A stretch of 64,000 nucleotides of DNA from Lingula anatina (lineage: Eukaryota > Animalia > Brachiopoda). Every line of letters begins with the position of its first letter. Position 1 is the first letter of the stretch. The position numbers and the translations under genes were made by a program. The notes beneath the pieces were generated by a model. That model worked only from the letters and a program-made list of their open reading frames with translations. It did not search any database and was not told the origin of the DNA. This document shows positions 5,328-64,000 of the stretch, piece after piece. Location: the NCBI GenBank assembly GCA_051362555.1, contig CM120647.1:1860001-1924000 (forward strand), in the 5' to 3' direction.

Positions 5328-23296
<17,969 letters not shown>

Positions 23297-23463: not shown

Positions 23464-24383
23464 TACTTCCATTCCTACCTCCCTCTAATTTGGATATTGG
23501 AGGCGGTCACCTAATTTTACCAAATATTTGCTGTCTCAACGCATGTGGCGCACAGTGTTCTTTAGGATCTGTATTATCACATGATGTGCATAGCATGTAA
23601 GAACAAAGTTGGCCCAAAGGGTGCGTGAAATCATGGACAAAGTAAATCATTTAATGATATTGAATATTTAATAATTGATGAGCATATTGTGAATCCAGTT
23701 AATTCTGCCAATAGGGAATTTAATAAAATAATGTCACATGGTGTACGTTTTCCGGCTTAGATACAAAACCCCAGACATTACTTGTGGCAATCTATTGGCG
23801 CTCCAGTAATGTCTTATGGACTGAATGCCTTACGTACTATGTCCAAGCGTCTAAAGATTATCGGTAAACTTCAAAACAGACAAATACCATTTAATGGGCC
23901 TAAGCCCTAGATCTCATGCCTCTCACCATTTACATATCCATAAGTTTCAAAAGCAATGGGTGAAAAGGCTGTCGGTTTAAAGTATTTAGTTCGTGTTTAT
24001 GTAGTGTGATATATTTAAATAAACATTGAAACTGGAATCAGATTTTCTCCCACATACTGTAGCATACTGTTGCCATTTTTGCCATTTCGACTGCATCGGT
24101 TTCCAAAATGCGATAGCTACATAGGAATAAATATAATACTGAAAAATGATGGTATTTATCAGTGTTATTTTCTGTTTTAACCTCTTCTGTGTATCGTGTA
24201 TTTTCAGCCTCTTGATGTCAAATATGTATCACTTTTTTCCGCATTGCTAAAGGGTTAAGATTTTAAACGTCTTAAATGAGATTGAAGGCTAAATAAACAA
24301 AGCAATTGGTCATTATTAAAATGAGTATTTAAAAAATAACTGCTTAAATCCCGTCGGCTTATCAAAATTCTTTAAAGTATTTG

Positions 24384-24671
24384 GGGCCATTTAGAATAAA
24401 TTATCCGAGTGCTTACAGATTCGTTAACTAAATATGGCTGGCCACAGTTCAAAAGCGATACCGCTAATTCCATGGTGGTCTCCCCGCCCCCACTCTCGCC
24501 GTCGCGGCAGGGGCCTAGCAATTAAACTTCGGAGCCAAGGTTTAATCCGTTAACGGCGCGTGTGGAGGCAGGGAGACCATCAGGAATCAGTGGCCTCGCT
24601 TTTTAAGTTTGGTCGGCCATATTTAGTCGGCGGATCAGTAAGTACTCGGATCATCTATTCTGAATGACACC
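24384..24671. mobile_element. MITE with ~120-bp imperfect inverted arms; partial relatives at 24770-24850, 30500-30590, 37200-37290 and 44300-44355
   Basis: Left arm ggggccatttagaataaattatccgagtgcttac...ggtctccccgccccca matches the reverse complement of right arm tggaggcagggagacc...gtaagtactcggatcatctattctgaatgacacc. Confidence 0.75.
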
Positions 24672-25203
24672 TTTGTCACAACTTGAGCGCATTCTGAACA
24701 AGTTGATCTGATTCTAATCGAACCATATACAGCCAAATTAATGTCGATTACTTAATGTGTACTATTCCGCCGATGGTCCCCCCGCCCTCACACGCGCCGT
24801 CCCTGAAGGGGCCTAGCAACTGCATATCAGAGCCGAGATTTAATCCGTTTTACATTTAAGCTTTTCGACAGCAGCCAAAACTGAACGCGTAAAAGATCCC
24901 CTACAAAAGGCTGAATCTGGTGCCACCTGCTCAAAGTTCCGGTTGCTGATGACGCTGTGCAAACGAAATTTTAATAGATTTTATTGCAAATTTACAGTTT
25001 TGTAATTCACACTTCTTGACGTATTGTCCTATTTCAAATTATTTTACTCCGAATATCCAAACTAAAATCCTCCTCGCCTGAATCTCGCCATAACTCTGAC
25101 AATCTGGGGAATTTTAAGAGGACTTAACCCATCTTTAGCGCTGGGTGTTTAAATTCAGCCATCCCCAAGAGCTACTGATTTGCCAGGAGGTCTAAAATGT
25201 GTT

Positions 25204-25691: not shown

Positions 25692-27849
25692 TTACACAGC
25701 CATTACGACATCTGTAAACTCCTCCTCGGAAATTTGATCAACCCTGAAACATAAGTTTAACTTCTATGTCATAAGTTAAAATACTGATGGATCTTTGAAG
25801 ATCTACTATAAAGATCTAATATGTAAACCAGGCATCCTGTTGTGGCGGCACATTGTGTAACTACCTATATATAATATGGAAATGAAAGATGAGACTGTGT
25901 TATTTAGTTTGAGTACAGATTTTCAAGAAAAGGCGTGCCCTTAAAGGAAAAGCCTAATTAATTGATATAGCCTGCATGGATACTTACATAATTACATGAT
26001 TATTTGAATGCAGTTTATCCATAAAATCTGTTATGGCGGCACAATGTTTCAATAAAATTTTATTTTGTAACCTTAAAGTATTATATTTGATCAAATGTCA
26101 TATTGAACCATGTTTCAACAAATACACACCCATATCAAATGTCCATTCTCCAGCCATTTTGTACCTTTTTGCTGTTTTTATAATATGTTTTCTGGGTGAC
26201 ATGTGATTCGGTTTCTACTTCAGATCATTTCAAACATTTTTAATGCAGCTGTAGCTTTGAAATTGCCAAAATTGAGAAATGCATTTTTTTAGATAGTTCA
26301 GTGGATCACTTGACTTTAACTGTACTGAAGAAAGTTACCCATACAGTGTTCACTTTGTAGATGCGTGTGAGTAAACGATATAAACATTTGAGATAGAGAC
26401 CCGTACATTGTGAACAGTTTCAGGGGTAATCCTAGAGAGGGGTAAGAAACGTCCATTGTTCTCGTCAGTGAGGCTAACCAAATTCAGGGTATGTACGCAC
26501 AGACAGAAAACTTAAGTATTGTGGGAACGTTACTAATGAAGCCACTGGTAGTACTAGTAGATATCAGTCTGTAGTCTTGAACAAGCACCTCCTTGACGAG
26601 TGAACAGTTGTCAAAAACAAAAGACCCAGGTGTGGTAGATCGACTACTGTTCGTGCGTGCCGCAAAGACCAAGCCTAATAGCCCCTCAAGATCACAAACT
26701 AATATCCGGTGCTGACGGTTAGGCTCGTCATAATCATATAAGTAGCGCGTTTCCACCCCCTGACAGTTTGAACAGATAGTGCCATCATACCTTTTTCTGT
26801 CCATGTCACTGAATACAGCTCTGGCATATGACACGTTGTCAACTGCTCTCTTTTTGTCACACGTGCAATAGGAGTACCTGTAATTAAATAGTACCGAAAG
26901 CAATGAGTCAGAAATGTCATTAGCGTTTTTTGAAGGATCTAAGCAGTACGTCTGCTAGGTAGTAACACACGGATTACTTTGTTCCATCAAGGATATTGTT
27001 GTCTAGAAAATTTTACCTTATTTTGAAACAACTGGCCAATAGATTTTGATACTCAAGAATCAATATGATCCAAATCGATGTGTTTCACTCTGCATTTTCA
27101 AGCAAGACCCAATACTTACAGAGAATCATATCTGTATACAGTGTTAACACAGTCCTCACTCTTTCTACAGCCACCTTGACAAGCACAACCGAAGATGTTA
27201 CACGATCCAACACCACAGTACGGAGTCCCCTGCAATAGGGTAAGTGAACTGTATGAGCGCTTTCCATCTCATTTACACGCGTAGAATCGATTATATAACA
27301 CGCGTTTAAATGTAGAGCTATGCTGTTGTTCACATCACACTCGGAAAGATTTTGAATTTATTGAATTTCTCATGACGAACGGAACAGCCAATGTCATTGG
27401 AAAAGCAGATTTCGATTCGCGTGCTTCAGATTTTGAAAACTTAGAGCAGACGAACGGCACTAAAAGCAGTACGTTCATGTTTGATGCAGTGCATCTGACA
27501 CTATTTTGGGATCAAACCAAGACTGTCGTCATAAGCAAGTTGCGCGAAAACCGCGTTAAACTAATGCACTTTCAGGATATCAGATACAGGATTATATAAG
27601 ATGCTTCCAATGTGACACACACAAATACACTCAACTTCTCAGGTTTTGTCTCAGTATACATGAAATTGTTTTAGTGACGTTTAATCTATGGTGAAAAATT
27701 AATATCACATTATGCGTTCATTGACGTACCATTTTGCAGTCGGCACAGTAATCGGAACGTACGATAATACAACAGACTGCCTGCCCAACTTCTACCATGC
27801 TTGCTGCAACAAAGACAGCAACTAGCAAAATGGCACTACAGCTCACCAT
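25692..27849 (-). CDS. Diedel-like secreted cysteine-rich protein, copy 1 (122 aa)
   Basis: Exons 27849-27730, 27229-27120, 26877-26791, 25743-25692 (369 nt, phases 0/2/2, GT-AG): MVSCSAILLVAVFVAASMVEVGQA-VCCIIVRSDYCADCKMGTPYCGVGSCNIFGCACQGGCRKSEDCVNTVYRYDSLYSYCTCD-KKR-AVDNVSYARAVFSDMDRKRVDQISEEEFTDVVMAV*. Upstream non-coding exon donor (gtgagt) near 27946; AATAAA on minus at 25408-25413. Confidence 0.85.
26421..26762. mobile_element. Non-autonomous TIR element (hAT/P-like ends) in the last intron of Diedel-like copy 1
   Basis: acagttt|caggggt...ccccctg|acagttt: CAGGGG TIRs and a 7-bp target duplication; the empty site (gaacagtttgaa) is present in copy 2. Confidence 0.8.
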
Positions 27850-28027
27850 GGCCTGAGATAGCTGAAAGAGTAATAGGAAATCAACAAGATGAAATTGTGC
27901 AACGACAAAATGACGTTTGTTCACTTCAAGACACTGTAATAACTCACCAGCTGAGTTGTTTGAGATTGGTTTGGTGAAACCGTGGCAACTCTATTTACAG
28001 CCTCTATAAATGTGCCTCTAGTCTCAG

Positions 28028-28034
28028 TGAGTCA
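28028..28034. promoter_or_regulatory. AP-1 site conserved in the proximal promoters of the Diedel-like genes
   Basis: TGAGTCA at 28028, 40142 and 46931, at the same position just upstream of the non-coding first exon; TTAGTCA at 33354 in the startless copy 2. Confidence 0.45.
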
Positions 28035-31000
28035 GCGGTACCCTATGTTCAAGAGCAACGTAATGCATTGTGTTAAATCCTTAATTTCTATGAGCTCTAC
28101 CATCAGCTGCCCCATAGTATGAGCAGCAGAGCAAAGATAAAACAAGGATTAGTCGAACTCCCTAGATATTAAGGGTGGACTGCGTCGTGCTGGCTGTCCT
28201 TTCAGTAGGTTCACCGCGTTGACAGGGACTACTTTTATTTTTTTACAATACATTTAATGTGGTTGGTGTGTTATTCCCAACTTTGACGAACGTACCTATA
28301 TTAGCACATCAACCAGTTTAAGCGGCAACACACGTCATGCTACACGTTTACATGTAGTGCCATGCTAGTGTTCACATCACAATCGGAAAGATTTCGAATT
28401 TATTGAATTTTCAACAGACCTCATGCTACACGTCCTTTTTATTTTTAAAAATACAAAGGAAATGATGACATAGTTTATTTAAAAATATTGAATATTGATC
28501 AAATGTGCATTGGGTGGCAAACATGGACATTAACCCAATATTCATTAAAAATTGGTGTAGCACAGTCTATAGATGAGTTTGTACTAGTACATTAAGGTAT
28601 ACAATTGAAAAAAAAAAAAAGCAAAAACAAGCTTATTTTGTTTTGTACTACCACCAGATTTTAAATACAAAATACGAATGTGTCTATATAATACAATGTA
28701 GTTGTATAAATAAATTCTATAGTGATACGAATAGGCTTTTCATTATACTAAGGTATCAAAAAAGATGTATCTTTAAATATTTTTAATGCAAAGCTCTTTG
28801 ACAGCAATGTGGTAAACATTCTTTAAATGAGCTCGAGTATTATTGATCTAGCGCGCAATTCAATCGATAGTAGTTTTCTTTTCCTTCAAGAAATGACAAC
28901 TTTTCAGCTAAGGATTGTTAAACTTTCTGTGATCTTTTGTATTTCAATCACTTACCGTACCTTTGATTAACGCTGCTAACCTTCTTTGTTTGAATTTGTC
29001 ACAGTTCTACATAATTTGATGTTTAAATATGAATAAGTCGTTGAGGGTATTGGACCTAAAAGTTTTAACAAGTTAGTCTCCGATAGTCGCAATTTAACCT
29101 GTGTAACAGTATATGAGCCGGATTCTACTGATATTTTGTCCTACTGGTTCTAAATAGATGACGACTGCTCTTAATGAATTTTGACACGTCCCATGTTTCT
29201 AGTTTCAAGAAAAACAAGCACGTTGTTACCGTGTCTTTAGCTAAGCTATTAAGATTTGCATTCAGTTAATTATGGAATAGAATTTTTTGGTTTGATAAAT
29301 CAGATAACATGTATCCAAAAGGTTTACTGGACTGTCTACTCACGTCCTATAAAAAAGGATCTGCCATATAAAGCAAATTAGATATCTACTACACATGTGA
29401 AACCAAGACGAAAGAGAATGATAACCCAATATGTTTCGTGGTGGAGGGGATCGTTTTTAAAGGATGTGCTTTAAATTGTGCGATATAACTATAGAGTGTT
29501 TTTTTAATAGAAAGTAGAAATTCCCATCAACCTTTTCATACCCACCGCCACTAAAACAAAATTTAGAGCGAAAGAGAAGGTAAGTCTGAGTGGCGCCCTT
29601 AACTTTAATAAAATTGCCCTCAAACATATAAAAGGGGGCATTCCTAATATAGGATACCTACCAGCCGTGTGGTTTGCTATTGGCTTGATGAAATCTGAAA
29701 CTGAACTAATTTTACTCGCAAATTGGATAATATGCGGCTTGTCAGTCCATCATTCCCTGCATTACAACATAAAAGATGTTTTAAATACTCGTTTCTGTGA
29801 CCTCTAATAGCAGCTTAAATGTGGTTGTAATAGCATTTTAACATTCTGTCGAAATTCAGCACTATGCGGTTGCCCTTTTAGAAGTGACACGCTATAAAGG
29901 GTCTTCTTAGTTTTAAGTGATGTACTAAATTTGATATATTTAAAATTAAGAGTAATTTCTCACAATTTGAACGAGGATTCATGTTATCATTATTATTCAA
30001 AACTTCAAGGTTGGTATTGAAAAGCCCGGTGAAACACACACCCAGTATTGAGTTGATATGATATGAAAATTAAAAATAGAATCAGATTTTCTCTCACATA
30101 CTGTAACATATTTTTGTCGTTTTGACTGCATCGGTTTACAAAATATAATTTCTACATCGAAATAAATATGATACTGAAAGTTGATGGTATTTCTCAATGA
30201 TATTTTCTGCACCAGCCTTCCCCGTGCATCGTGTATTTTCAGCGTCTTGATGACAAACGTGTCTCACTTTGGTTCCGCATTGCTAAAGGGTCAGGTTTTC
30301 ATCGTCTTAAATCAGATTTTAGGCTAACCAAAGCAAGGGGTCCTTATTGGAAAATGAATATTTTTTTAAAAAATAACTGCGTAAATCCCGTCGTCTTATC
30401 AAAATCTGCAAAGTATTTGCCACAATTTGAGCGCATACAGAACAAGTTGAACTGCAGACTAACAAATTAGCGAATCAAATACGGCCAAATTAAAAACAAT
30501 GCCGACTGATCTGCTGATGGTCCCCCGCCCCCACACCCGCTGCCCCTGCAGGGGACTAGCAATTAAATCCCGGAGCCAAGATCTAAGCCCTTTAATAAAC
30601 ATTTATGCTTTTTGACAGCCACTGAATGCGCGAATGACTCCTTACAAAAGGCTGGATCTAGTGATGTTACGCCGCTGTACAACCTGAGTTTATTTTAGAT
30701 TTTATTGCAATTTTACAGTTTTTTTTAATTTACACTACTTGACGTATTTTTCATTTTAAACTATTTTACTTCGACAAACCAAACTTAAATCCCCCTTACC
30801 TGACTCTCGACATACCTTTGACAATCTAGAAAATTTAAAGAGCACTTGACCCATGCTTATTAGCGCTTGGTGTTTAAATTCAGCCATCCCCTTGAGCTCC
30901 TGGTTTGCCAGGAGGTTTAAAATATGATTATTTAATTTTGGTAGTAATTTAACAATTAAGCAACTATCTGTTGAAGTATGATAAAATGAATTAATGGATA

Positions 31001-31300
31001 AAAAAGAAATCAAAAATTCAATTTTAATACCGTTTATTGCGTTTGTTGTTCATCAAGCAATATGAATTAAGCAAAGGGGAGAATAACACAGTCTGAATGC
31101 TAATCTGAACTTTTTCAGAGTAAGGATTCTTAAAATAAATGCGTTTTCGATAAAGCTATATGCTGTAAGGTATCTTTGCTGCCTAAATATGTAGGGTGTA
31201 CCTTCTCAACAAGCGCTGAAATCCCTAATAGTCCATACCGTCTTCTTTGTTCCAAGTCATGATGGTGGATTCAGAATAAAGAATAAAGTTTATTTCTTCC

Positions 31301-33181
31301 CTACAGAGCCATAACGACATCTGTTAACTGATCCTTGGAGATTTGATCAACCCTGAAAGATACGTTTAACTTCTATTTTATAAAACTTCTTTCTCATCTA
31401 AATTCATCTCCCGTATAACACATTTGATAAAAATACAATAATTCAACTGTTTTCCTTTCTGACTGTTTTCCTTTTTTAGGTCAGACCAATTTCATAAACT
31501 TCCAATGGAAATGCGAAGAGAATCCTTCGCTTCACCATATGTATCACATTGTATATCTACCTATACATAATATGGGAATGAAAGACAAGAATGTGTTATT
31601 ATTTTGAGTACAGATTTTCAAGAAAAGACTTCGCCTTAAAGAAAAAGACTATTCAAATGTTAAAGCCTGCATGGATACTCAAGATATGTTGAGATAGTCT
31701 GGACAGAATTGCATGATTATGTGCACGTAGATTATCCAGAAAATCTGTTATGGCGGCACAATGTTTCAATGAAATTTTATTTTGTGACCTTAAAGTATTA
31801 TAGTTAATCAAGTGTCATATTATTCCATGTTTTAACAAATGCACGCCCTTATCGAAGGTCCATTTTCTAACCATTTGAACATTTTTTTTCTTTTTGTATA
31901 TAATGTTTACTGGATGATATGTGACTCAGTTTCCACTTCTGTTCATTTCAAACAGTTTTAATGCAGCTGTATACTATAGCTTTGCAATTGCCAAAACTGA
32001 GAAGTGCATTTTTCAAGTTTATCAAATACTTCAGTGGATTACTTCTGTATTTAACTGTTCCAAAGAACGTTGCCCATACAGCGTGAACTTTTTAGATGCG
32101 TATGAGTAAACGATATGAACATTTGAAATAGAGACCTGCACATTGTGAACAGTTTGAATAGATAGAGCCATCATACCTTTTTCTGTCCATGTCACTGAAT
32201 ACAGCTCTGGCATATGGCACGTTGTCAACTGCTCTCTTTTTGTCACACGTGCATTCGGTGTAGCTGTAATTAAATAGTACCTCATACAATGAGTCAGTCA
32301 TGTCATTAGCGTTTTTGAAGGATCTAAGCGGCACGTCTGATAGGTAATAACACACGGATGATTTTGTTCCATAAGGATATTACATGTCTACAAATTTAAC
32401 CTTATTTGTAGACAACTAACCAATAGATTCTGATGCTTAAGAATCAATATGATCCAAATCGAAGTGTTTCACTCTGCGTTTTCGAGCAAGACCCAATACT
32501 TACAGAGAACCATTTCTGTATACAGTGTCAACACAGTCCTCGCTCTTTCTACAGCCACCTTGACAAGCACAACCAAAGATGTTACATGATCCAACACCAC
32601 AGTGAGGGGTTTTCTGTAAAAGGGCAAGTGAATCGTATGAATGTATACCATCTTATTTAAGGCTGGGTCACACTGCACTTGCTACCTTTTGGCAACGTTT
32701 TGGCAACCACAAAATCTGGCGGTCGCTTGCGATCGCTTTGCAAGCTAATTTTAAAATGTGGCCAATTTTGATAGGCAACCGGTAGCAAGCCGATTTCGAT
32801 TCCTTCATCCGAAGATTTTGAAAGCGTACTAGTAGAGCAAACGAAAGGCATTCAAAGCAGTCCGTTAATGTTTAATGCGAAACTAATTTGAAACTATTTT
32901 GGAATCAAACCATAACGCAAAAACCACGGTAAACTAAAGCACTTTCAAGATATTAGATACAGGATTATATAAGATGCTTTCAATAAGACACACACGAATA
33001 CACTCTCATGTTTTGTCTTAATAAACATGTAAAATCTCGCCTCACACGTTAATTGACGTACCTTTTTGCAGTCGGCGCAGTAAGCGGCATTTAAGACGAT
33101 ACAACAGACAGCCTGCCCAACTTCTACCAAGCTTGCTGCAACAAAGACAGCAACTAGCAGAATAGCACTTCTGCTAAATTT
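31301..33181 (-). pseudogene. Diedel-like copy 2: start codon and exon-2 acceptor lost, rest of the frame open
   Basis: gccATG of the other copies reads gccAAA (33179-33181) and acceptor ctttcag reads ctttcaa; downstream exons still encode VCCIVLNAAYCADCKK-KTPHCGVGSCNIFGCACQGGCRKSEDCVDTVYRNGSLYTECTCDKKR...RVDQISKDQLTDVVMAL*. Confidence 0.75.
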
Positions 33182-33737
33182 GGCTTGAAATAATTGAAAG
33201 AGTGATAGAAAATCAACACGATGAAATTGCGCAACGACAAAATGCCGTTTGTTCACTTCAAGACACTGTAATAACTCACGAGTCGAGTTGAGTTTGGCTT
33301 TATGAAACTGTGACAACTCTATTTACAACCTCTATAAATATCCCTATAGTCAGTTAGTCATTGGTACCCTGTGTTCAAGAGCAACGCAATAGATATATGT
33401 TAAATCCTTAATTTATATGGGCTCTACTATCACCTGTCTTATATTAAGAGTAGCGAAGCAAATATAAAACAAGGATTAGTCGAACTCCCTAGAAATTTAG
33501 GGTGGACTGCGTGGTCCTGGTTGTCCTTTTCAGCAGGTCCATCGTTTGATTGGCACTACTTAAAAAATTTTAACAATACATTTAGTGTGGTTGGTGTTAT
33601 TTCCAACTTTGAAGAACGTAATTATATTGGCACATCAACCAGTTTAAGCGGCGACAGACGTCATGCTACACTTAATAATTATTTTTAAAAATACAAAGGA
33701 AATAATGACGTAGTTTATTAAAAATACTCAATTGTAA

Positions 33738-33950
33738 AGCCCCCTTTACACTAGTCGACGTCATTTCTACGTCCCGTAGTACGGCCCCGTTTTAGAGTGA
33801 AAAAAACGTATAATACTTCACGTGCCGATCATTGAAAATTCCTTCTTCAACCAAAGCGATGCTTGAGTATCCTTTTTACGAACACAGCGCTGACAGTTTC
33901 CTGGTCGCTCAAAGGACGCAGAAAGGACGCCGTCCAGTGTAAAGGGGGTT
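33738..33950. mobile_element. Harbinger-type MITE
   Basis: taa|agccccctttacact ... agtgtaaagggggtt|taa; absent from the homologous region near 28490. Confidence 0.75.
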
Positions 33951-33963
33951 TAAGCAATTGTGT

Positions 33964-35095
33964 CATGGCCAGAAATGTGCAGCATTCACGCGATACGCGA
34001 GGGCGAAACAGTAGGGCTTCACGTAACTCAACTAACCAATCACAGCACAAGAATGGCATCGCACACAGACTCTGTGATAAGTGCTCAGCCCATTATCAAG
34101 TAGTGTTAGTTCATGGTAACAAGCGTCTGATATGTGCAGAGAAGTTTATTATTATAATATATATTGTTTTTATTGTTACATTATTAAATCTAACTCTGTA
34201 TCCAAGTAGTAACTATACTGTACCAAGCCAGGTACTGATGATGTGCAGAGGTCATATATTCATTACCACTGATTTATAACTTTTATTTTTGTTTAATATG
34301 TTATTCGTGAAAGAGTTCATGAAATATTATTTTAATTTGTTAAATCGTGATCTTATTCTTTTTATATTCAAATAATTGAATAATGTGGGTAAAATTGATC
34401 TTCCACTTCTTTTTTGCATTTTTCCTTTACTACAAGATTATTTTGGAACAGTTGCAGTATAAAAATTTAAATAAATAGCAATCTGAAAGAAGAATTTTGC
34501 ATAATTATTAAATGATGATATGAATTTTGGATTAAGAGATTAGTTAAATACTGAGTATAGTGATATGGTCAGTCAATTTATGTAGAATCTGTTAATATGA
34601 TTGAAAATACTGATTGAATTCTTGGCCTTGCACTGAGCAGTTTCACATTTGTGGCAAGTGCTCTTTTTGGACTCCATTGTACAGTGGTAAAAAATCTTCA
34701 ATTGCCATAAAAGTTTTTCATCAGACTCTGCATGGTGCTGCTATCTGCTGGTGCTATCGGCAACGAATTAATTTGCCTATGTTTCTGAGTGAATTTACCG
34801 TCAAAAATCACTATTACTGAAAATATTTGCGTTTTGCTGAGGGTAGGCTAGGCAATATACGGCAAACTTCTTAGTAAGTGTGTACAACAGATTAAAAAAA
34901 ACCCTAGCGATTTTTGGTCAGGGGTTGCTTGAAGCATAGCACAGCGTTTCTGTCTATCGGCATCAGGCTGTTAGTTTGTCAATTCTCACGAATTACCCAC
35001 CCATTCATTTTCCTATGGCAATCTAGCAACTCATTAAAAATGCACGCATGCGCAGTGGGCTAGACGTTACGTCATGCAGTGCATTTCTGGGGATG
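33964..35095. mobile_element. Non-autonomous DNA transposon with CAT... termini (P-element-like)
   Basis: TIRs catggccagaaatgtgcagcat / atgcagtgcatttctggggatg; degenerate 8-bp flanks aattgtgt / cattgggt; interrupts sequence that is contiguous at ~28500 in unit 1. Confidence 0.6.
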
Positions 35096-36091
35096 CATTG
35101 GGTGGCAAACATGGACATTAACCCAATATTCATTAAAGATGGATTAAGTACAGTCTTTAGATGAGTTTGTACTAGAACATTAAGGTATACAATTGAAATC
35201 AAGCAAAAACAAACTTATTTTGTTTTGTACTACCACCAGATTTTTTTATTTGAAATACGAATGTGACTGTAGAATACAATGTAGCTGTATAAATAAAATC
35301 TATAGTGATACAAAATGCTTTATACTGAGGTATCAAAAAAAGATGCATCTTTACATATTTTTATTACAAAGCTCTATGACGGCAATGTGATTTACAATGT
35401 TTAAATGAGCTCAAGTATTACTGATCTAGCGAGCAATCCAATCGATAGTAGTTTTCTTTTCCTTCAAGAAAAGGCAACTTTTCAGCTAAGGATTGTTAGC
35501 CTTCTTGCGATCTATTGTTTTTCCAATCACTTGCCGTATCTTTGATTAACGTTGCTAACTTTCTTTGTTTTAATATGTCACAGATATACATAATTTGACG
35601 TACATTCAATCAATTATCGAATAATTTTTGTTTTTTTTTTTTTTGGGGGGGGGGGTGATAAATCAGATAACATATATCCAAAAGGTTAACAGGACTGTCT
35701 ACTCACGTCCTATGAAAAAGGATCTGCTATATAAAAGCAAAATAGATATCTACTACACATGTGAAACCAGGACGAAAGAGAATGATAACCCATTATGTTT
35801 CGTGGCGGAGGGGATCGTCTTAAAAGATGTGCTTTTCAAAGTGCAATTTAAAAATTGTGTGATATAACTGTAGAGTGTTTTTTTTATAGAAAGTAGACAT
35901 TTCCATCAACCTTTTCATATCCAACGCCACTAAAACAAAATTTAGAGCAAAAGAAAAGGTCAGTCGGAGTGTCGCCCTCAACTTTAATAAAGTTACCCTC
36001 AAACATAAAAAGCAAAGTAGGCATTCATAATATAGGGTATCTACCAGCGGTGCGGTTTGCTATTGGCTTGATGAAATCTGACTAACTTTAC

Positions 36092-36210
36092 TTCGCTATG
36101 TTGCGCACGTGCCATGGACGTGCACAAGTGTCTCGATTCCATGGCCCCGTATCTCGAAATAGAATCGGTTATGGAATCGAGACACTAACACGCGTGCGCA
36201 ACATAGCGAA
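36092..36210. mobile_element. Small hairpin MITE
   Basis: ttcgctatgttgcgcacg / cgtgcgcaacatagcgaa with inner gtgtctcgattccat / atggaatcgagacac arms. Confidence 0.75.
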
Positions 36211-36224
36211 CCTACGGAGCCCAG

Positions 36225-37168
36225 GCCCCCGTTTCACAAAAATCTTAAATCCGTTGTTGACTAGCTCGAGCTGACAGGCCTAGCTCGGTCGACTACGCTG
36301 TAGTCGACTAGGACTGTTTCACAAAGAATCTAAAGTCGTAGCTTGGTGTGCTCACCGTAGTCGACGCGCACAAGAAACTCTTCAAGAAAAGGGGGTGTAA
36401 AATTCGAAGACTTTCACAAGAAATGACGTTTCATGGTCTCTTTCGGCCGAGAAAGATCGTTTATCTACAAAAATCGACCAAAACACAGACAAAGTTTGTT
36501 TTTCAAGTTTATTGATTAGTTTAACTTCAATGCAACTTCAAAGTAACACTTAAACATTAGCTTGTCGTGGAACACTGCTGACGGACGTTTAGAGGTCAAA
36601 AACAAACAAACACTCGATCGGCTGGGTGAAGTGGCATTTTATTTTTTTTTTCAATATTCCATAAATGTCAGTGCTATTCAAGGATATTATAATACAAAAT
36701 CTTGATGGAGGTATGTTTTTTCTAATTTTTTGTTGTTTATGCTCTCATTTAGCGAGTTTTAGTTGAGCTGGCCGACTTAAGTCTCCTCCCGAGGAGGCTA
36801 GACATCGTCGACTAGCAGCTAAGAAAAAACGACGTACCTTGTAGATTATTGTATGGTTGTGACCAATTGTGTTAAATTGTGTTAGAGGTGACTATGCAGT
36901 GGGTCCCTCTAGTGGTAAAAAAAAAGAGAAAAGTGAGGGTGAAGTTGTGAAGTTGTGGCAAGTTTGTCGGTTACACGTGTTTTTCCATGTTGGAAAGAGT
37001 GTTGACTCCATGCGGAGTGAAGTTGTGACATGTTTGTTGGTCACACGTGGTTCGAATGTAATGTAAAACTGTAAAATGAAAAACAAAATTGAACTAGCGC
37101 AAGTTTTTATTTACTTTTAACTTCAACAGTCAGGGAAACCGACTTAAGTTTTATCGTGAAACGGGGAC
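36225..37168. mobile_element. Non-autonomous PIF/Harbinger element
   Basis: cag|gcccccgtttcac ... gtgaaacggggac|cag: TIRs with a 3-bp CAG duplication; sits at the junction between array units 2 and 3. Confidence 0.75.
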
Positions 37169-38009
37169 CAGCGAATCAAATACGGTCAAATTAAAAGCAG
37201 TGCCGACTAATACGCTGATGGTCCCCCGCCCCTGCTGCCCCTGCAGGGGACTAGCAATTAAAGCCTGGAGCCAAGATCTAAGCCCTTTAATAAACATTTA
37301 TGCTTTTTGACAGCCACCCATACTGAATGCTCGAATGACTCCTTACAAAAGGCTGGATCTAGTGATGTTACGCCGCTGTACAACCTGAGTTCATTTTAGA
37401 TTTTATTGCAATTTTACAGTTTTTTTTTTTTTTTTAATTTACACTACTTGACGTATTTACCATTTTAAACTATTTTACTCCAACAAACCAAACTTAAAGC
37501 CCCCTCACCTGACTCTCGACATACCTTTGACAATCTAGAAAATTTAAAGTGCACTTGACCCATGCTTATTAGTGCTTGGTGTTTAAATTCAGCCATCCCC
37601 TTGAGCTCCTGGTTTGCCAGGAGGTTTAAAATTTCATTATTTGTTTTTGGTATTAATTAAATAATTAAGCAATTATCTGTTGAAGTATGATAAAATGAAT
37701 TAATGAATAAAAAAGAAATCAAAAATTCAATTTTAATACCGTTTATTGCGTTTGTTGTTCATCAAGCAATATGAATTAAGCAAAGGGGAGAATAACACAG
37801 TCTGAATGCTAATCTGAACTTTTTTAGAGTAAGGATTCTTAAAATAAACGCGTTTTCGATAAAGCTGTATGCTGTAAGGTATCTTTGCTGCCTAAATATG
37901 TAGGGTTTACTTTTTCAACTAGCGCTGAAATTCCTAAGAGTCCATACCGTCTTCTTTGTTCCAAGTCATGATGGTGGATTCAGAATAAAGAATAAAGTTT
38001 ATTTCTTCC

Positions 38010-39958
38010 CTACAGAGCCATAACGACATCTGTCAACTGCTCCTTGGACATTTTATCAACCCTGAAACATACGTTTAACTTCTATTTTATAAAACTTCTT
38101 TCTCATCTAAATTCATCTCCCGTATAACACATTTGATAAAAATGCAATAATTCAACTGTTTTCCTTTCTGACTGTTTTCCTTTTTTAGGTCAGACCAATT
38201 TTATAAACTCCCAATGGAAATGCGAAGAGAATCCTTTGCTTCACCATATGTATCACATTGTATATCTACCTATACATAATATGGGAATGAAAGACAAGAA
38301 TGTGTTATTATTTTGAGTACAGATTTTCAAGAAAAGACTTCGCCTTAAAGAAAAAGACTATTCAAATGTTAAGCCTGCATGGATACTCAAGATAGGTTGA
38401 GATAGTCTGGACAGAATTACATGATTATTTGCATGTAGTTTATCCAGAAAATCTGTTATGGCGGCACAATGTTTCAATGAAATTTTATTTTGTGACCTAA
38501 GAGTATTATATTTAATCAAATGCCATATTATGCCATGTTTTCACAAAAAACACGCCCTTATTGAATGTCCGTTTTATAACCATTAGGACTTTTTTCTTTT
38601 CGTATATAATGATTTCTGGATGATATGTGACTCGGTTTCCACTACAGATCATTTCAAACAGTTTTAATACAGCTGTAGCTTTGCAATTGCCAAAATTGAG
38701 AAGTGCGTTTTTCAAGTTAATCAAATACTTCAGCGGATCACTTCTGTTTTTAACTGTTCCAAGGAACGTTGCCCATACAGTGTTAATTTTTTAGATACGT
38801 ATGAGTAAACGATATTAATATTTGAGGTATAGATCCATACATTGTGAATAGTGTGAATAGATAGTGGCATCCTACCTTTTTCTGTCCATGTCACTGTATA
38901 CAGCCTGAGTATTGGTTCTGGCATATGGCGCATTGTCAACTGCTCTCTTTTTGTCACACCTGCATACGGTGTACCTGTAATTAAATAGTACCGCATACAA
39001 TGAGTCAGTTTTGTCATTAGCTTGGCGTTTTTTTTTTTTTTTTTTTTTTCTGAAGAATCTAAGCGGCACGTCTGATAGATAGTAACACACTGATAACTTT
39101 GTTCCGTCAAGGCTATTGTTGTCTAGAAAATTTTACCTTAATTATTTTAAAACAACTGGTCAATAGATTCTGATACTCAAGAATCAGTATGATTCAAATC
39201 GAAGTGTTTACAAGCAAGATCTAATACTTACAGAGAACCATATCTGTATACAGTGTTAACACAGTCCTCGCTCTTTCTACAGCCACCTTGACAAGCACAA
39301 CCGAAGATGTTACATGACCCAACACCACAGTGAGGAGTCACCTGCAATAGGAGTAGTGAACTGTATGAGCGTTTTCCCTATTATTTACACGCGTACAATC
39401 GTTTATATAACACGTGTTTAAATGTAGTGCTATGCTAGTGTTCATATCACACTCGGAAACATTTCGAATATATTGAATTTTCTCATAACGGACGGAACAG
39501 CCAATGTCATTGGAAGAGTCGATTTCAGTTCCTTCATCCGCACGCTTCAGATATTGAAAGCGTGGAGAATTAATGTTTAATGTGGTGCACTTGAAACTAT
39601 TTTGGAATCAAACTAAGACTGTCGTCATAATCAAATTTCGCGAAATCCACAGTAAACTAATGCATTTGCAAGATATTAGATACAGGATCATATAAGATGC
39701 TTTCAATGTGATACAAAAAAAAATACTCAACTTCTCCAGTTTTGTCTCAGTGTACAGGTACATGAAATTGCTTCAGTAACGTTGAATTTATGGTGAAAAA
39801 ACTAATCTCTTCTTATACGTTCATTGACATACCTTTTTGCAGTCGGCACAGTAAGCGGAATGTAAGTCAATACAACATACAGCCTGTCCAACTTCTACCA
39901 AGCTCGCTGCAACAAAGACAGCAACTAGCAGAATAGCATTACTGCTAGGCCTAACCAT
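38010..39958 (-). CDS. Diedel-like secreted cysteine-rich protein, copy 3 (128 aa)
   Basis: Exons 39958-39833, 39341-39232, 38974-38876, 38061-38010 (387 nt): MVRPSSNAILLVAVFVAASLVEVGQA-VCCIDLHSAYCADCKKVTPHCGVGSCNIFGCACQGGCRKSEDCVNTVYRYGSLYTVCRCD-KKR-AVDNAPYARTNTQAVYSDMDRKRVDKMSKEQLTDVVMAL*. Confidence 0.85.
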
Positions 39959-41029
39959 GGCTTGAAATAGCTGAGAGAGTAATACAAAGTCAACAAAATG
40001 AAATATCGTAACGACAAATTTATGTCGTTTGTTCACTTCAAGACACTGCCTGTAATAACTCACCAGTTGAGTTGTTTGAGATTGGTTAGGTGAAACTGTG
40101 GCAACTCTATTTACAGCCTCTATAAATATGCCTCCAGTCAGTGAGTCATTGGCACCCTATGTTCAAGAGCAACGTAATGCATTGTGTTACATCCTTAACT
40201 TCTATGGGCTCTACCATCAGCTGTCCCATAGTATGAGCAGCAGAGCAACGATAAAACAAGGATTAGTCGAACTCCCTAGATATTCAGGGTGGACTGCGTG
40301 GTGCTGGTTGTCCTTTTCAGTAGGTTCGCCACGTTGACAAGGGCTACTTTTATTTTTTAACAATAAATTGAATGTGGTCGGTGCCTTATTTATAACTTTG
40401 ACGAAACAAAAACAAGATTATTTTGTTTTGTTCTACCACCAGCTTTTTGAATACAAAATACAAATGTGTTTGTATAATACAATGCAGCTGTAAAAACAAA
40501 TACTGCTGATACGTTTGAGCTTTTCATTATACTGAGGTACCAAAAATGTATCTTTAAATATTTTTTATCCAAAGATCTTTGACGACAATGTGATATGCAT
40601 TCTTTAAATGAGGTCGAGTATTGTTGATCTAGCGTGCAATCCAATCGATGGTAGTTTTATTTTCCTTCAAGGAACAATAACTTTTCAGCTAGGGATTGTA
40701 AACCTTTCTGTGATCTGTTGTATTCAATCACTTATCGTGACTTCGATTAACGCTGCTAGGCTTCTTTGTTTTAATTTGTCACAGTTCTACATAATTTGAT
40801 GTCTAAATATAAATGACTCGTTAAGGGTTTTGATCCTGAAAGTTTTAACAAGTCAGTCTACGATAATCGCAATTTAATCTGTGTAATAGTATATGAGCCG
40901 GGTTCTACTTATATTTTGTCCTACTGGTTCTAAATAGAGGACGACTGCTCGTAATGTTTTTTTTAACACGTCCCATGTTTCTAGTCTAAGAAAAACAATC
41001 ACGTTGTTACCGTGTCTGTAGCTGAGCTA

Positions 41030-41370
41030 CACTGTAAAAACAGTGTTTAGCTCCTACACACATTTCTAAGCGCCTATTTTGTCTCATTTTTTAGACGCGT
41101 TTAGCTCCTAACATGCTTAGCTCCTTGACATATTACACGCTTTTAGACCGAATGTGTTTAGCAGTATGACGCGTTTGACGTCTAATAAATGTAGGGTGTA
41201 TTGTTTAACTTTTAGGTGCTAAGGGTTTCAACTGTTTAAGTCGCACACACACACACACACACACACACACGAACTCACGGTCACCTTTAACTGCTATAGT
41301 TATCTTTTTCTATAACAGGGTACCGTGAACTGTCAACATCGCTGACTTCACAACATCATCTTTACAGCTG
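41030..41370. mobile_element. Probable truncated EnSpm/CACTA-like insertion end, containing (CA)n
   Basis: Homology to unit 1 breaks at tagctgagcta|cactgtaaaaa; CACTGTAAAAA-type terminus followed by tttagctcc subrepeats; no clean right TIR found. Confidence 0.35.
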
Positions 41371-43267
41371 GACTTATTGTATTTCTGAAGAGCAAGTTAG
41401 GAAAATTCACTAGTTCTCTACAGGCACGAAACAACTATCACTTTTACTTTAAAACACCTTTCTTCATATTTTGATAAAATGCGTTACGGTATTGATATCT
41501 ATTTATTTTTTCCGGAAATATTGAACAATAGAACATCAGGATAATGGTGGGGTATTCATTATAATACTTTATTTAAGCTTTCATCACATGCTGGTTATTT
41601 CGTTACCGATAGTCCGAATATTCTACAATTCCCACCGCTCTAGTCGCCGACTAACCCCAAGCCCATTTTGGAATTAACCGTTAACTGTAGTTCAAACAAC
41701 ATAAGACGTGTTTTGGTTATTTATATTAAAAAAAGGTTATCAAAACATTATATAATGTTTTTCCAGAATGTTATAAACACGCTGATAAAACTCCACAAAA
41801 TGGTGTTATCATAAAATTTTGTAGAAACGGATCTTTTTTACAAAGTATAACGTTACTATACATCATTTTGCATGAGTTAAAACACCCATAACGTTACCAT
41901 AATGTTATTGTTTACCATTACCAGTATGTAACCATCTGACAACGTCGTAAAAATGTTATTTGTTATTTGGATTATTACTTAAAGGTACATATGAACCGAG
42001 CATCGGTGGAGCGTGGGTTTCCAGTAACACATATAAACCACTTCCACTAGATACGTCGACATGCCAAATGACAAACTGAATAAATCACTCGATCAGCCAT
42101 AAAAGAGCTTAAGACTGCTCTTTAAATTTTTGGTAAAAAATTTAACCTACTTATGTGACCTACTTTTCTGCCCCATGTATATCATGTACAGGATAGTAAC
42201 AGGCCTACCCAACTACCAGACTCGGCACCGAATGATCCAGAATTCACCGGTAAATCGGACCACACTACCCGTTTTCAGATCTTATCTCTAGAAATGGGGT
42301 CTTAGTTTTAAGTGATGCACTAGATTTGATATATTTATAATTAAGAGTAATTTCTAACAATTTGAACGAGGATTCATGTTATCATTATTATTCAAAACTA
42401 CAAGGTTGGTATTGAAAAGCGCGATCACGCATCCAGTATTGAAACACACTTTTTTTACTAAAAATATAAGAACGCAGACAATCTGAACGAATCATATACT
42501 GAACCTCTCTATATATCTTGTGGTGGAAATGATTGTTTATATTATTTTTCCCTTTCACTCATTCAAACAATGGATAACTATCACTTATGAAGTGCAATTA
42601 TATCAAAAATGAAAATTTGAAAGCGCATATAAAAAAACAACCGTTTGATTTAATCTGTTTTTGTACCACCGCTGTAAAATACAGGATGTACCTGCATGCA
42701 AACGCAGTGTAAGCACCGATAGAGAGAAAAACTAAAAGTTATACTTAGTCACTTGAAAATGATTTTTACAGATTCCTCTTTTTCTAAATGTCAGCAACGG
42801 AGTCTAAGGTTAAAAAAAAACTTGAAATTGGGCAGCGGTGCATCTGATCAATAGCAATGCTCAATTTTTACAAAATGAAACATGATTGGTAATGAAATGG
42901 TGCCATTTGGTACGGTTTAGATTATCAGAGATTAGATTTCCAGAGGGGACCATTGGTGTGACTTTTTTTTCAGAAATCGAAGGGGGGGTTCAGGACTCCT
43001 CTTACACCCTCGGATCCCCTAAACCCTCCACTGCAAGCCTGTATTTGTAAGCTACACTGTATTTTCACAGCCTTTTCCAAAAACCGCTATAGTTTTGATG
43101 ATTAACGGGTGACCCCAACTCCTAAACCCTTCATGGGTCAACGTTTAACTAAATTTTTTGAATTGAATATATTCATTTTATTCATTTTTAATACTCTGTG
43201 CAATATTTTAACATGGATGCATTTGAATTCTTTACCTATTTTAGCACAGAATATACCCAGTCCGTTA

Positions 43268-43433
43268 TTAGTCCATTTCAGTATATGCGTCGTAATCATC
43301 CTCCCCTGTGTCCCAAGGTTCTCCACCAAATTCCGTGTTGATTTTCACTGTCTCCTCTATTTGTGTTACAATAGAGGTGAAGTCTGGTCGCTCCTCTGGC
43401 TCCCACGACCAGCACTTCAACATCAGCTGGTAC
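43268..43433 (-). pseudogene. Orphan duplicate of the RTK2 terminal kinase exon, with ~0.9 kb of upstream intron
   Basis: 43250-44300 aligns with 51670-52745; acceptor ttccag intact; encodes the same YQLMLKCWSWEPEERPDFTSIVTQIEETVKINTEFGGEPWDTGEDDYDAYTEMD*; no other kinase exons next to it. Confidence 0.8.
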
Positions 43434-45111: not shown

Positions 45112-46745
45112 CTACACAGCCATTACGCCATCGGTTAACTGCTCCTTGGAGATTTGATCGACCCTGAAACATACGTTTAACTTCTATTTCATAAAACTTC
45201 TTTCTCATCTAAATCCATCTCCCGTATAACACATTTGATATAAAAAAAGTTAGTTTATCCAGAAAATCTGTTATGGCGGCACAATGTTTCAATGAAATTT
45301 TATTTTGAGACCTAAAAGTATTATATTTAATCAAATGTCATATATGCCATGTTTTAACAAATGCACACGCTTATCGAATGCCCATTTTCTAACCATTTGA
45401 ACATTTTTTTCTTTTTGTATATAATGTTTTCTGGATGATGTGTGACTCAGTTTCCACTTCAGATCATTTCAAACAGTTTTAATGCAGTTGAAGCTTTGCA
45501 ATTGCCAAAATTGAGAAGTAAATTTTTCCGGTTTATCAAATACTTCAGTGGATCAATCCTGTCTTTAACTGTTCCAAAGAACGTTGCACATACAGTGTGA
45601 ACTTTGTAGATGCGTATGAGTAAACGATATGAACATTTGAGATAGAGACCCGTACACTGTGAATACTTTGAATAGATAGTGCCGCCATACCTTTTTCTGT
45701 CCATGTCACTGTATACTGCTCTGGCATTGGCTCTGGCATATGGCACATTGTCAACTGCTCTCTTTTTGTCACACCTGCATACGGTGTAGCTGTAATTAAA
45801 TAGTATCTTCTGCAATAAGTAAGTCATGTCATTAGCGTTTTTTAAGGATCTCAGCGGCAAGTCTGATAGTTAGTAACACACTGATTACTTTGTTCCATCA
45901 AGGATATTGTTGTCTAGAAAATTTTACCTTATTTTAAAACAACTGGTCAATAGATTCTGATACTCAAGAATCAATATGATCCAAATCGAAGTGTTTCACT
46001 CTGTGTTTTAGAGCAAGATTCAATACTTACATTAAACCATATCTGAATATAGTATCAACACAGTCCTCGCTCTTTCTACAGCCACCTTCACAAGCACAAC
46101 CGAAGATGTTACATGACCCAACACCACAGTGCGGAGTCACCTGCAATAGGAGTAGTGAACTGTATGAGCGTTTTCCCTCTTATTTACACGCGTTCAATCG
46201 TTTATATAACAGTACGTGTTTCAATGTAGTGCTATGCTAGTGTTCACATCACACTCGGAAACATTTCGAATTTATTGAATTTTCTCATGACGGACGGAAC
46301 AGCCAATGTCATTGGAAGAGTCGATTTCAGTTCCTTCATCCGTGCCCTTCAGAGTTGAAAGCGTAGAGAATTAATGTTTAACGCGGTGCACTTGAAACTA
46401 TTTTGGAATCAAACTAAGACTGTCGTCATAATCAAATTTCGCAAAATCCACAGTAAACTAATGCATTTGCAAGATATTAGATACAGGATCATATAAGATG
46501 CTTTCAATGTGATACAAAAAAAAACTCAATTTCTCAAATTTTGTTTTAATACACATGTAATTGCTTTAGTAACGTTGAATCTATGATTGTGAAAAAAATT
46601 ACCTCTTCTTATACGTTAATTGACGTACCTTTTTGCAGTCGGCGCAGTAAGTCGAACCGTCAATACAACAAACAGCCTGGCCAACTTCTACCAAGCTTGC
46701 TGCAACAAAGACAGCAACTAACAGAATAGCACTACAGCTCACCAT
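45112..46745 (-). CDS. Diedel-like secreted cysteine-rich protein, copy 4 (125 aa)
   Basis: Exons 46745-46629, 46140-46031, 45789-45691, 45163-45112 (378 nt): MVSCSAILLVAVFVAASLVEVGQA-VCCIDGSTYCADCKKVTPHCGVGSCNIFGCACEGGCRKSEDCVDTIFRYGLIYTVCRCD-KKR-AVDNVPYARANARAVYSDMDRKRVDQISKEQLTDGVMAV*. Confidence 0.85.
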
Positions 46746-51370: not shown

Positions 51371-51688
51371 GATAATACAGAACCTAAAGAACAATGCGCT
51401 CCAGAATCGTTGAGGCAAAATTAGGTGACCGCCTTCAATATCCAAATTGGGAGGAGGTAAAAATGGAAATATGCAGCGTCTAGTTTATTTGTAGTTTTTG
51501 TCCGCAGTTTAATTCTTTTTCGTAAAAACAGTGAAACATGAAAATTATAAAGTTATTTGACATTTTAAAATACAACAAGTTCTAGTGAAGAAGAATCAAC
51601 ATCGTCATCGTCAAAACTTATTGAAAATCACAGTCCAAAAATAGATTGGTCTTAATAGGCAGATTTACAGAATATACCCAGTCCGTTA

Positions 51689-64000
<12,312 letters not shown>

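What the first reader, a model, noticed from the sequence alone, without database searches (positions are those of the whole stretch)
25692..27849. Precursor design: 12-Cys Diedel-like domain, KKR convertase site, EF-hand-like tail
Seen in all four copies: 12 cysteines in the predicted mature region, including a C-terminal extension (EDC...YxxCxCD), followed directly by KKR. The tail AVFSDM-DRKRVDQISEEE-F has EF-hand loop spacing (D1, I8, S9, E12, then F) in copy 1, degraded to ..KEQL/..KDQL in copies 2-4. Knowledge: Drosophila Diedel has 10 Cys and no such tail; dibasic sites are cut by prohormone convertases. Inference: these are processed pro-proteins releasing a ~6-disulfide, ~60-aa peptide from a vestigial Ca2+-sensing propiece that is losing its ligands (loop positions 3 and 5 are non-canonical even in copy 1).
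Basis: partly seen in the sequence, partly recalled or inferred. Interest (0 to 1): 0.7.

Follow-up and report, generated by a model that had tools for sequence, protein, structure and literature searches.

The report
Brachiopod cousins of mussel antifungal mytimycin
Four neighbouring gene copies in a brachiopod (lamp shell) genome, one lacking its start codon, are relatives of the mussel antifungal peptide mytimycin; they likely make a small disulfide-rich defence peptide that is cut free from a worn-down calcium-binding tail, and their sequence links mytimycin to the fly immune protein Diedel.

Summary
There are four tandem minus-strand copies, each with four GT-AG coding exons, 12 cysteines, KKR and a 35-39 aa tail. 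Copy 1 equals RefSeq Lingula anatina LOC106160243. RNA reads from a diverged allele or paralog show all three junctions. Copy 2 has lost its ATG. The design is not new. It is the mussel mytimycin precursor: signal peptide, 12-Cys type II array, dibasic site, EF-hand propiece (PMC8004829). Seven consecutive Cys spacings match, and 15 of 24 core residues are identical. The tail is a lone, degenerate EF-hand. Lingula paralogs have one or two canonical loops in the same register, but the tail alone scores only marginally. Unlike mytimycins, these peptides are near-neutral. Two points were not found in the paper searches: mytimycins outside mussels (published as Mytilida-restricted), and mytimycin sharing Diedel's core. 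The core-plus-EF-hand layout also occurs in amphioxus, mites and fungi. Likely mechanism: secretion, convertase cleavage after KR, and release of a ~60-aa six-disulfide defence peptide. Cleavage, activity and Ca2+ binding are untested. Verdict: new variant of a known kind; interest 0.5.

The parts
27948..28010 (-). Copy 1 predicted TATA box (28010) and short non-coding first exon ending at a GT donor (27947); the acceptor lets the next exon start at 27861
   Evidence: Same TATA-donor layout in 4 of 4 copies; inferred, no RNA junction seen
27730..27849 (-). Copy 1 coding exon 1: signal peptide (24 aa, predicted cut after Ala before VCC) and Cys1-4
   Evidence: hydropathy 3.15, G/A at -3/-1; SignalP not run; P0001
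27120..27229 (-). Copy 1 coding exon 2: Diedel/mytimycin core (CNIFGC motif), Cys5-10
   Evidence: Pfam PF13164 E 1.1e-7
26791..26877 (-). Copy 1 coding exon 3: terminal CxC, KKR site, linker, entering helix and loop positions 1-4 of the EF-like motif
26421..26762 (.). 342-bp insertion in intron 3 of copy 1 only; CAGGGG ends, 7-bp target-site duplication (likely a non-autonomous DNA transposon)
   Evidence: Absent from copies 2-4; its left end is common in RNA reads with unrelated flanks
25692..25743 (-). Copy 1 coding exon 4: rest of the EF-like loop, exiting helix, stop; AATAAA 278 nt downstream
   Evidence: P0001 ends at the same stop
31301..33181 (-). Copy 2 (exons ~33181-33062, 32613-32504, 32263-32177, 31352-31301): frame and splice sites intact, but ATG replaced by AAA (33181-33179); probable pseudogene
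38010..39958 (-). Copy 3 (39958-39833, 39341-39232, 38974-38876, 38061-38010), 128 aa, intact
45112..46745 (-). Copy 4 (46745-46629, 46140-46031, 45789-45691, 45163-45112), 125 aa, intact

Best explanation
These are tandemly duplicated brachiopod genes of the mytimycin/Diedel family whose precursors are likely secreted and cut by a prohormone convertase after KKR, releasing a ~60-aa peptide predicted to hold six disulfides and likely to act in host defence, while the degenerate EF-hand tail is likely a discarded propiece that no longer binds Ca2+. Shown here: gene structure, splicing of a close allele or paralog, homology to mytimycin and Diedel, loss of loop ligands relative to paralogs. Inferred steps: (1) the signal peptide is cut before VCC; (2) eight Cys fold the Diedel SD2 knot, and the other four add a Cys10-Cys12 hairpin bond and, by elimination, Cys4-Cys11; (3) cleavage after KR and trimming of basic residues leave a peptide ending CxCD; (4) the peptide acts through the exposed Ile-Phe loop on a specific target rather than by cationic membrane lysis, since its net charge is -1.7 to +0.4; (5) in intact family members the EF-hand pair would bind Ca2+ in the secretory pathway and aid folding, sorting or masking, whereas here the partner hand and three or four key loop residues are gone.
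For: A profile of four relatives finds Mytilus edulis mytimycin precursor at E 2.5e-11. Pairwise P0001 vs P0039 is E 1e-10 over 120 residues, running through the basic site into the tail. The first seven Cys spacings and the terminal CxC are identical, and 15 of 24 core residues are identical. A profile of the four window peptides scores both mytimycins above 500 of 500 Cys-fixed shuffles, as does a profile of six Drosophila Diedels. The 12-Cys array with terminal CxC occurs in 12 of the 120 listed hits (11 Lingula plus mytimycin), and 11 of these 12 have KR/RR within five residues. PMC8004829 gives signal 23 aa, mature 54 aa with 12 Cys, a dibasic site under negative selection and an EF-hand extension. 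Lingula paralogs with two (P0015) or one (P0017, P0018) canonical loop align in register with the copy 1 tail (1 and 6 of 2000 shuffles). The AlphaFold model shows helix 108-118, loop, helix 128-137, and its best PDB matches are Diedel, then EF-hand proteins. Run X5 has 10, 6 and 10 reads across the three junction types, all on the expected strand.
Against: No cleavage, activity or Ca2+ data exist for these genes. The peptides are neutral to acidic (pI 5.0-7.6), whereas mytimycins are usually cationic and 9 of 10 other Lingula paralogs are positively charged, so antifungal activity may not carry over. The KKR site has Asp at P4, so it is not a furin consensus (recalled rule). Only 20 of 52 EF-bearing relatives have KR/RR in the linker. 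Tail vs mytimycin tail is not significant (118-583 of 2000 shuffles), and only 4 of 20 tail comparisons reach 1%. Structural matches are weak (Foldseek E 0.046, Z 3.2), and the model's tail shape is steered by EF-hand rows in the alignment. The tree did not group the Lingula and mussel sequences. Expression is low: no exon reads on copies 1-2 in 4 of 4 runs at 95% likeness; junction reads at 82% in X5 and a trace in X3, 2 of 4 runs. The mussel gene is reported with 3 exons against 4 coding exons here; intron positions were not compared.
Confidence: 0.68

Rival explanations
1. The released peptide is a Diedel-like signalling or matrix ligand that binds a host receptor, not an antimicrobial.
For: Near-neutral charge. 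The Asn-Ile-Phe loop proposed as Diedel's interaction surface (PMC3307722) is invariant in all four copies, while variation clusters in the segment after the CC. The window peptides score higher against Drosophila Diedels than against mytimycins (36-39 vs 24-28 bits).
Against: No RGD motif in 4 of 4 copies, whereas Diedel's integrin binding needs RGD (PMC9116668 section 7). Diedel's SD1 helix-and-sheet subdomain is absent. The precursor layout and Cys array match mytimycin, not Diedel. Tandem expansion with pseudogenes is typical of the mussel peptides.
Confidence: 0.2
2. The protein is not cleaved, and the tail stays attached as a folded dimerisation or mineral/matrix-binding module.
For: The tail is as constrained as the mature part among the copies (dN/dS 0.43 vs 0.50). 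It is predicted as helix-loop-helix at pLDDT about 87-92. 32 of 52 EF-bearing relatives lack a KR/RR linker site.
Against: KR follows the last CxC in 10 of 11 Lingula members at 33-45% identity. Native mytimycin is a 6.2 kDa cleaved peptide. Tail length and sequence vary freely among paralogs. The low pTM of 0.49 gives no support for a fixed contact between the two parts.
Confidence: 0.07
3. The cluster is a decaying set of recent duplicates with little or no current function.
For: Copy 2 has lost its ATG, copy 1 carries a transposon-like insert, the EF ligands are lost, and expression is low.
Against: Three copies have intact frames, splice sites, TATA boxes and polyA signals. All 12 Cys are kept at 87-92% nucleotide identity, dN/dS is below 1 in every region, and spliced transcripts exist.
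Confidence: 0.05

Closest known systems
Mytimycin precursor, type II array (Mytilus; AET85056.1 = P0039; PMC8004829)
   Same: Signal of about 23-24 aa, 12-Cys array with Cys spacings 0,7,2,6,4,4,1 and a terminal CxC, basic cleavage site, acidic or neutral EF-hand propiece, multi-copy family with pseudogenes.
   Different: Brachiopod rather than mussel. One degenerate loop in a 35-39 aa tail versus two canonical loops in about 75 aa. Mature peptide near-neutral rather than cationic. Longer hairpin before the CxC. GG insert before Cys9, absent in Mytilus but present in Modiolus, Perna and Perumytilus rows of the paper's alignment. Four coding exons versus three exons reported.
Drosophila Diedel (CG11501; PF13164; PDB 3ZZO/3ZZR)
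   Same: Eight-Cys core (SD2) with the exposed Ile-Phe loop; secreted; Pfam Diedel above cut-off; family profile matches 3ZZO at E 4e-14.
   Different: Diedel has 10 Cys, an SD1 subdomain and an RGD motif, and has no dibasic site or EF-hand tail.
Lingula paralogs LOC106165319 (two EF loops), LOC106176957 and LOC106165317 (one loop), and seven further RefSeq models
   Same: Same 12-Cys array and KR site; loops in the same register.
   Different: Canonical D-x-N-x-D-G loops; mostly cationic mature parts; 33-45% identity to the window copies.
Unstudied Diedel-core + EF-hand-pair proteins of amphioxus, house-dust mites and basidiomycete fungi (P0060, P0145, P0020)
   Same: Signal + Diedel core + EF-hand tail.
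   Different: Different accessory Cys, no terminal CxC, and a basic site often absent.

Membership tests
Mytimycin | N-terminal signal peptide of about 23 aa | tested here: met
   24-26 aa with a hydrophobic core and G/A at -3/-1 in copies 1, 3, 4 (hydropathy only, SignalP not run); copy 2 lacks the ATG
Mytimycin | 10 backbone Cys plus accessory pairs; type II = 12 Cys | tested here: met
   12 Cys in 4 of 4 copies; spacing matches P0039 over the first seven intervals and the final CxC
Mytimycin | Conserved central core sequence | tested here: met
   15 of 24 identical, ungapped; 0 of 500 Cys-fixed shuffles reach the score
Mytimycin | Dibasic site after the mature peptide | tested here: met
   KKR in 4 of 4 copies; motif only, cleavage not shown
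Mytimycin | C-terminal extension with an EF-hand domain (two canonical loops in mussels) | tested here: inconclusive
   One degenerate loop in register with paralogs; no Pfam hit; second loop absent. Intact in other Lingula paralogs
Mytimycin | Usually cationic mature peptide (pI 7-9) | tested here: not met
   pI 4.99, 6.71, 7.63, 5.63; charge -1.7 to +0.4. A usual property rather than a strict one: a few mussel variants are at -0.2 to -1
Mytimycin | Orthology (one clade with the mussel genes; shared intron positions) | tested here: inconclusive
   Quick tree of 54 rows and 90 columns left deep forks open; mussel introns not compared
Mytimycin | Antifungal activity, haemocyte expression | not testable with these tools
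   No assay; tissues of the RNA runs are not given
Diedel (PF13164) | Pfam Diedel score above the gathering cut-off | tested here: met
   Exon 2 of 4 of 4 copies, 30.3-32.6 bits; whole P0001 26.7 bits vs 21.3
Diedel (PF13164) | SD2 four-disulfide fold | tested here: inconclusive
   Eight Cys invariant in a 23-row alignment; model's top matches are 3ZZR/3ZZO, but E 0.046 and Z 3.2
Diedel (Drosophila protein sensu stricto) | RGD integrin-binding motif and uncleaved two-subdomain body | tested here: not met
   No RGD in 4 of 4 copies; the region after the core is a beta-hairpin, then KKR and the tail
Canonical Ca2+-binding EF-hand | D/N at loop positions 1, 3, 5; Gly6; Glu12; paired hands | tested here: not met
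   K3, V5, D6 in all copies, Q12 in copies 2-4, single hand; the consensus positions are recalled and match the family frequencies

The most novel reading that the evidence does not exclude
Mussel mytimycins and fly/viral Diedel are two ends of one old, eukaryote-wide family of secreted Diedel-core peptides whose ancestral precursor carried a Ca2+-binding EF-hand pair. The Lingula genes are the sequence bridge that Pfam misses. They give mytimycin its unsolved disulfide map from the Diedel crystal structure, and they record step-wise loss of the EF-hand propiece (two hands, one hand, a dead hand) within one genome.
Probability: 0.55. Interest if true: 0.65.

Novelty: new variant of a known kind. 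Interest (0 to 1): 0.5.

Why it matters
PMC8004829 states that mytimycins are restricted to Mytilida, that their fold and disulfide connectivity are unknown, and that the EF-hand was probably acquired in mussels. A brachiopod family of at least 11 RefSeq members with the same array, site and tail contradicts the first and third points. The link to Diedel, which has a solved structure, makes the second directly testable. Mytimycin itself misses the Pfam Diedel model, which may be why the link is absent from the papers searched. The paralog series offers a natural test of what the EF-hand propiece does. The precursor design itself is not new.

Tried and rejected
No whole genome is held, so other Lingula loci and their introns could not be read. 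The deep search of protein representatives was never run, so the family range rests on word-seeded searches: 120 of 277 hits listed. The look-up of sequencing runs listed no RNA holder; raw runs of the same species label were laid instead. Four runs at 95% likeness gave no exon reads on copies 1-2. In one search the junctions hop between copies; I read this as a diverged allele or paralog whose exons each map to their nearest copy, not as splicing between copies, and it does not show which copy is expressed (11 further joints were not shown). The 16 extra N-terminal residues of RefSeq P0001 match another frame of an exon 3 plus the 5' UTR and are treated as a gene-model artefact. A canonical EF-loop pattern found no second-hand exon in any of the six frames of the window. 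KEAP1/Kelch hits were rejected as chance. The ESM Atlas top cluster (144 aa, EF-hand, mostly Mollusca, score 0.90) is a lead only, and its structure rows were uninformative. The Foldseek search of the mytimycin model returned only EF-hand proteins in the listed rows, so it does not test the core fold. The careful tree did not finish and the quick tree is unresolved at depth. A second dibasic site inside the loop (RKR) was considered as a new processing site and left as a weak lead, because its last Arg sits on the splice junction. No complex was folded. Paper searches: mytimycin+Diedel 0 papers; mytimycin-like 0; mytimycin+Lingula 3 and mytimycin+brachiopod 2, of which only PMC7653742 was checked, and it makes no link; Diedel+EF-hand 3 listings, none read; some searches were seen as listings only. 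A 2018 survey of Lingula immunity (recalled, subscription journal) is not held and could already mention these genes. The scan's own index held nothing by place or sequence.

Full report
OBSERVATION. The window is animal DNA (GC about 36%) with a four-unit tandem array between about 25 and 47 kb. Each unit holds a minus-strand gene of four coding exons with GT-AG introns in phases 0, 2, 2. Copy 1 (27849-25692) gives 122 aa, copy 3 gives 128 aa and copy 4 gives 125 aa. Copy 2 is intact except that AAA replaces the ATG, with no in-frame ATG upstream. All four have 12 Cys followed by D-KKR and a 35-39 aa tail. With the predicted cut before VCC the mature part is 60 aa (59 in copy 4); one search counted one residue more. 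The copies are 87-92% identical in DNA and 81-87% in protein. The exon 2 search returned one protein, RefSeq LOC106160243 of Lingula anatina; its residues 17-138 are identical to my copy 1 model.

EXPRESSION. At 95% likeness, four RNA runs (6-25% of each read) gave no reads on the exons of copies 1-2. At 82%, over 27000-46990 and with four other runs, X5 showed 10, 6 and 10 reads across the exon 1-2, 2-3 and 3-4 junction types, all in the direction expected for a minus-strand RNA, and X3 showed 2 reads; X6 and X8 showed none in the listed rows. The exons map to different copies, so the reads come from a diverged allele or paralog. They confirm the intron positions and the use of exon 4, not which copy is active.

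WHAT IT IS. The layout is that of mussel mytimycin. PMC8004829 (read: parts 1-3 and 5 of 5 of the text, supplement parts 1 and 8 of 9; Figure S1 unreadable) describes a 23-aa signal, a 54-aa mature peptide with 12 Cys, a dibasic site under negative selection and a 75-aa extension with an EF-hand. It lists a 12-Cys type II array and calls the family restricted to Mytilida, with fold and connectivity unknown. A profile of P0001 and three relatives found 277 proteins among 1223 candidates, of which 120 were listed. They include ten more Lingula proteins, the M. edulis mytimycin precursor (E 2.5e-11), Drosophila and aphid Diedels, amphioxus, mite, Daphnia, green-alga and fungal proteins, and many unnamed ones. 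P0001 and mytimycin align at 28% over 120 residues, share Cys spacings 0,7,2,6,4,4,1 and the terminal CxC, and are identical at 15 of 24 core positions. Profiles from the four window peptides, from 14 Lingula peptides and from six Drosophila Diedels each score both mytimycins above 500 of 500 shuffles with the Cys held fixed (13.6-36.9 bits). Mytimycin has no Pfam Diedel hit at E 0.1 and meets the Diedel structure only at E 0.028. The window proteins pass the Pfam cut-off, and the 89-row family profile meets 3ZZO at E 4e-14. The Lingula sequences therefore bridge the two. Among the 120 listed hits the 12-Cys array with terminal CxC occurs in 12 (11 Lingula plus mytimycin), and 11 of these 12 have KR or RR within five residues.

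THE TAIL. 52 of the 120 listed hits carry at least one canonical-type EF loop after the core and 26 carry two; 20 of the 52 have KR/RR in the linker. In Lingula, P0015 has two canonical loops and P0017 and P0018 have one. Several other RefSeq models stop near the loop and may be truncated. The copy 1 tail aligns without gaps to P0017/P0018 (1 and 6 of 2000 shuffles), but only 4 of 20 tail comparisons reach 1%, and none with mytimycin does. Against a profile of 74 loops from non-Lingula relatives the window tails are marginal or not significant (45-277 of 1000 shuffles), while the canonical paralogs are clear (0 of 1000); that profile was built from loops picked by the canonical pattern, which penalises degenerate ones. 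Positions 3, 5 and 6 are K, V, D instead of N/D, D, G in all copies, position 12 is Q in copies 2-4, and no partner hand exists. Copy 1 branches first in the tree, which fits E12/F13 as the older state. Ca2+ binding is therefore unlikely (inference from recalled EF-hand rules). dN/dS is 0.25, 0.50 and 0.43 for signal, mature part and tail, from six non-independent pairs and about 25 synonymous sites in the tail: there is no sign that the tail is decaying faster now. Whether the remnant is the first or second hand is unresolved.

STRUCTURE. AlphaFold2 on P0001 with 89 rows gives mean pLDDT 83 and pTM 0.49: a loop-rich Cys knot, a hairpin at 83-90/92-99 and helix-loop-helix at 108-137. The top Foldseek rows are the two Diedel crystals (E 0.046, 0.13), then EF-hand proteins at non-significant E; VIA gives Z 3.2 over 51 residues to 3ZZO. 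These are weak and alignment-steered. In both this model and the mytimycin model the hairpin register puts Cys10 opposite Cys12. Eight Cys are invariant down to Diedel, and Diedel's SD2 has four disulfides (PMC3307722, parts 1-2 of 4 read). That leaves Cys4-Cys11. This map is inferred. It fits the 10-Cys mussel forms in the paper's alignment, which keep one of the last three Cys (by eye), and it differs from a literal CxC bond.

MECHANISM. Most likely: ER entry and oxidative folding, convertase cleavage after KR, trimming of the basic residues (recalled pathway), and release of a ~6.5 kDa peptide. Native mytimycin is a 6.2 kDa peptide that inhibits Neurospora and Fusarium (PMC3210125, passages). 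The window peptides have net charge -1.7 to +0.4, unlike the mytimycins tested (+2.4, +4.3) and 9 of 10 other Lingula paralogs. A specific target reached through the conserved Ile-Phe loop is therefore more likely than membrane lysis, and a Diedel-like signalling role is the main rival. Diedel's integrin role needs RGD (PMC9116668, abstract and section 7), which is absent here.

COMPARISON AND NOVELTY. It works like a mytimycin precursor and is homologous to it. Strict membership is left open: the cationic charge is not met, the EF-hand is degenerate and orthology is unresolved (quick tree, 54 rows, 90 columns). I file it as a variant within the wider mytimycin/Diedel family. The precursor design is known. 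RefSeq already auto-names some Lingula paralogs 'protein Diedel'. No paper in the library holds both 'mytimycin' and 'Diedel' or 'mytimycin-like', and the one Lingula/brachiopod co-mention checked makes no link. Subscription papers, including a recalled 2018 survey of Lingula immunity (not held), were not seen. PMC3039611 and PMC7653742 were seen as passages only. The wide range of the core-plus-EF layout could reflect one ancestral gene, repeated fusion or horizontal transfer; these data do not decide.

VERDICT. A real feature with a known design, plus a probably unreported range extension and family link. New variant of a known kind; interest 0.5.

Noticed in passing
window 26421-26762: 342-bp insertion in intron 3 of copy 1 only, with CAGGGG ends and a 7-bp target-site duplication; its left end appears in hundreds of RNA reads with unrelated flanks, so it is likely an abundant non-autonomous DNA transposon.
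   Followed up: partly
window 33181-33179: Copy 2 has lost its start codon and one upstream splice acceptor, while the rest of the frame is intact.
   Followed up: yes
window 26791-26800 and equivalents in copies 2-4: The dead EF loop reads RKR at positions 2-4, a possible second dibasic site that would release two short tail peptides; the last Arg codon spans the splice junction, which may explain it without selection.
   Followed up: partly
window 5325-23296 (+) and about 51700-64000 (-): Two inverted, closely related receptor tyrosine kinase genes with Sema and kinase exons (MET/RON-like by recalled architecture) flank the array; arms are 83-99% complementary.
   Followed up: no
window 43106-43545: A duplicated terminal exon of the kinase gene lies between copies 3 and 4 (98% identical to 51667-51966).
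   Followed up: no
window 13202-13976 (-): Two overlapping open frames of 117 and 164 aa inside a kinase-gene intron; the longer has no Pfam hit. Possibly a retroelement remnant.
   Followed up: no
about 90 nt upstream of the TATA region of copies 1, 3, 4: A TGACTCA (AP-1-like, recalled) site is kept in the three intact copies and altered in copy 2; no NF-kB-like site was found in 1 kb.
   Followed up: no
P0001 residues 1-16: The RefSeq model of copy 1 starts with residues read from an exon 3 in another frame; probably a chimeric gene model.
   Followed up: partly
P0075, P0090, P0092, P0113: Aphid-type proteins fuse the Diedel domain to an LRAT domain (PF04970); a Daphnia protein is named as having an Apple domain.
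   Followed up: no
window 24383-24870: Imperfect inverted repeats and related GC-rich motifs; a related repeat near 37233-37291 is transcribed in run X3.
   Followed up: no
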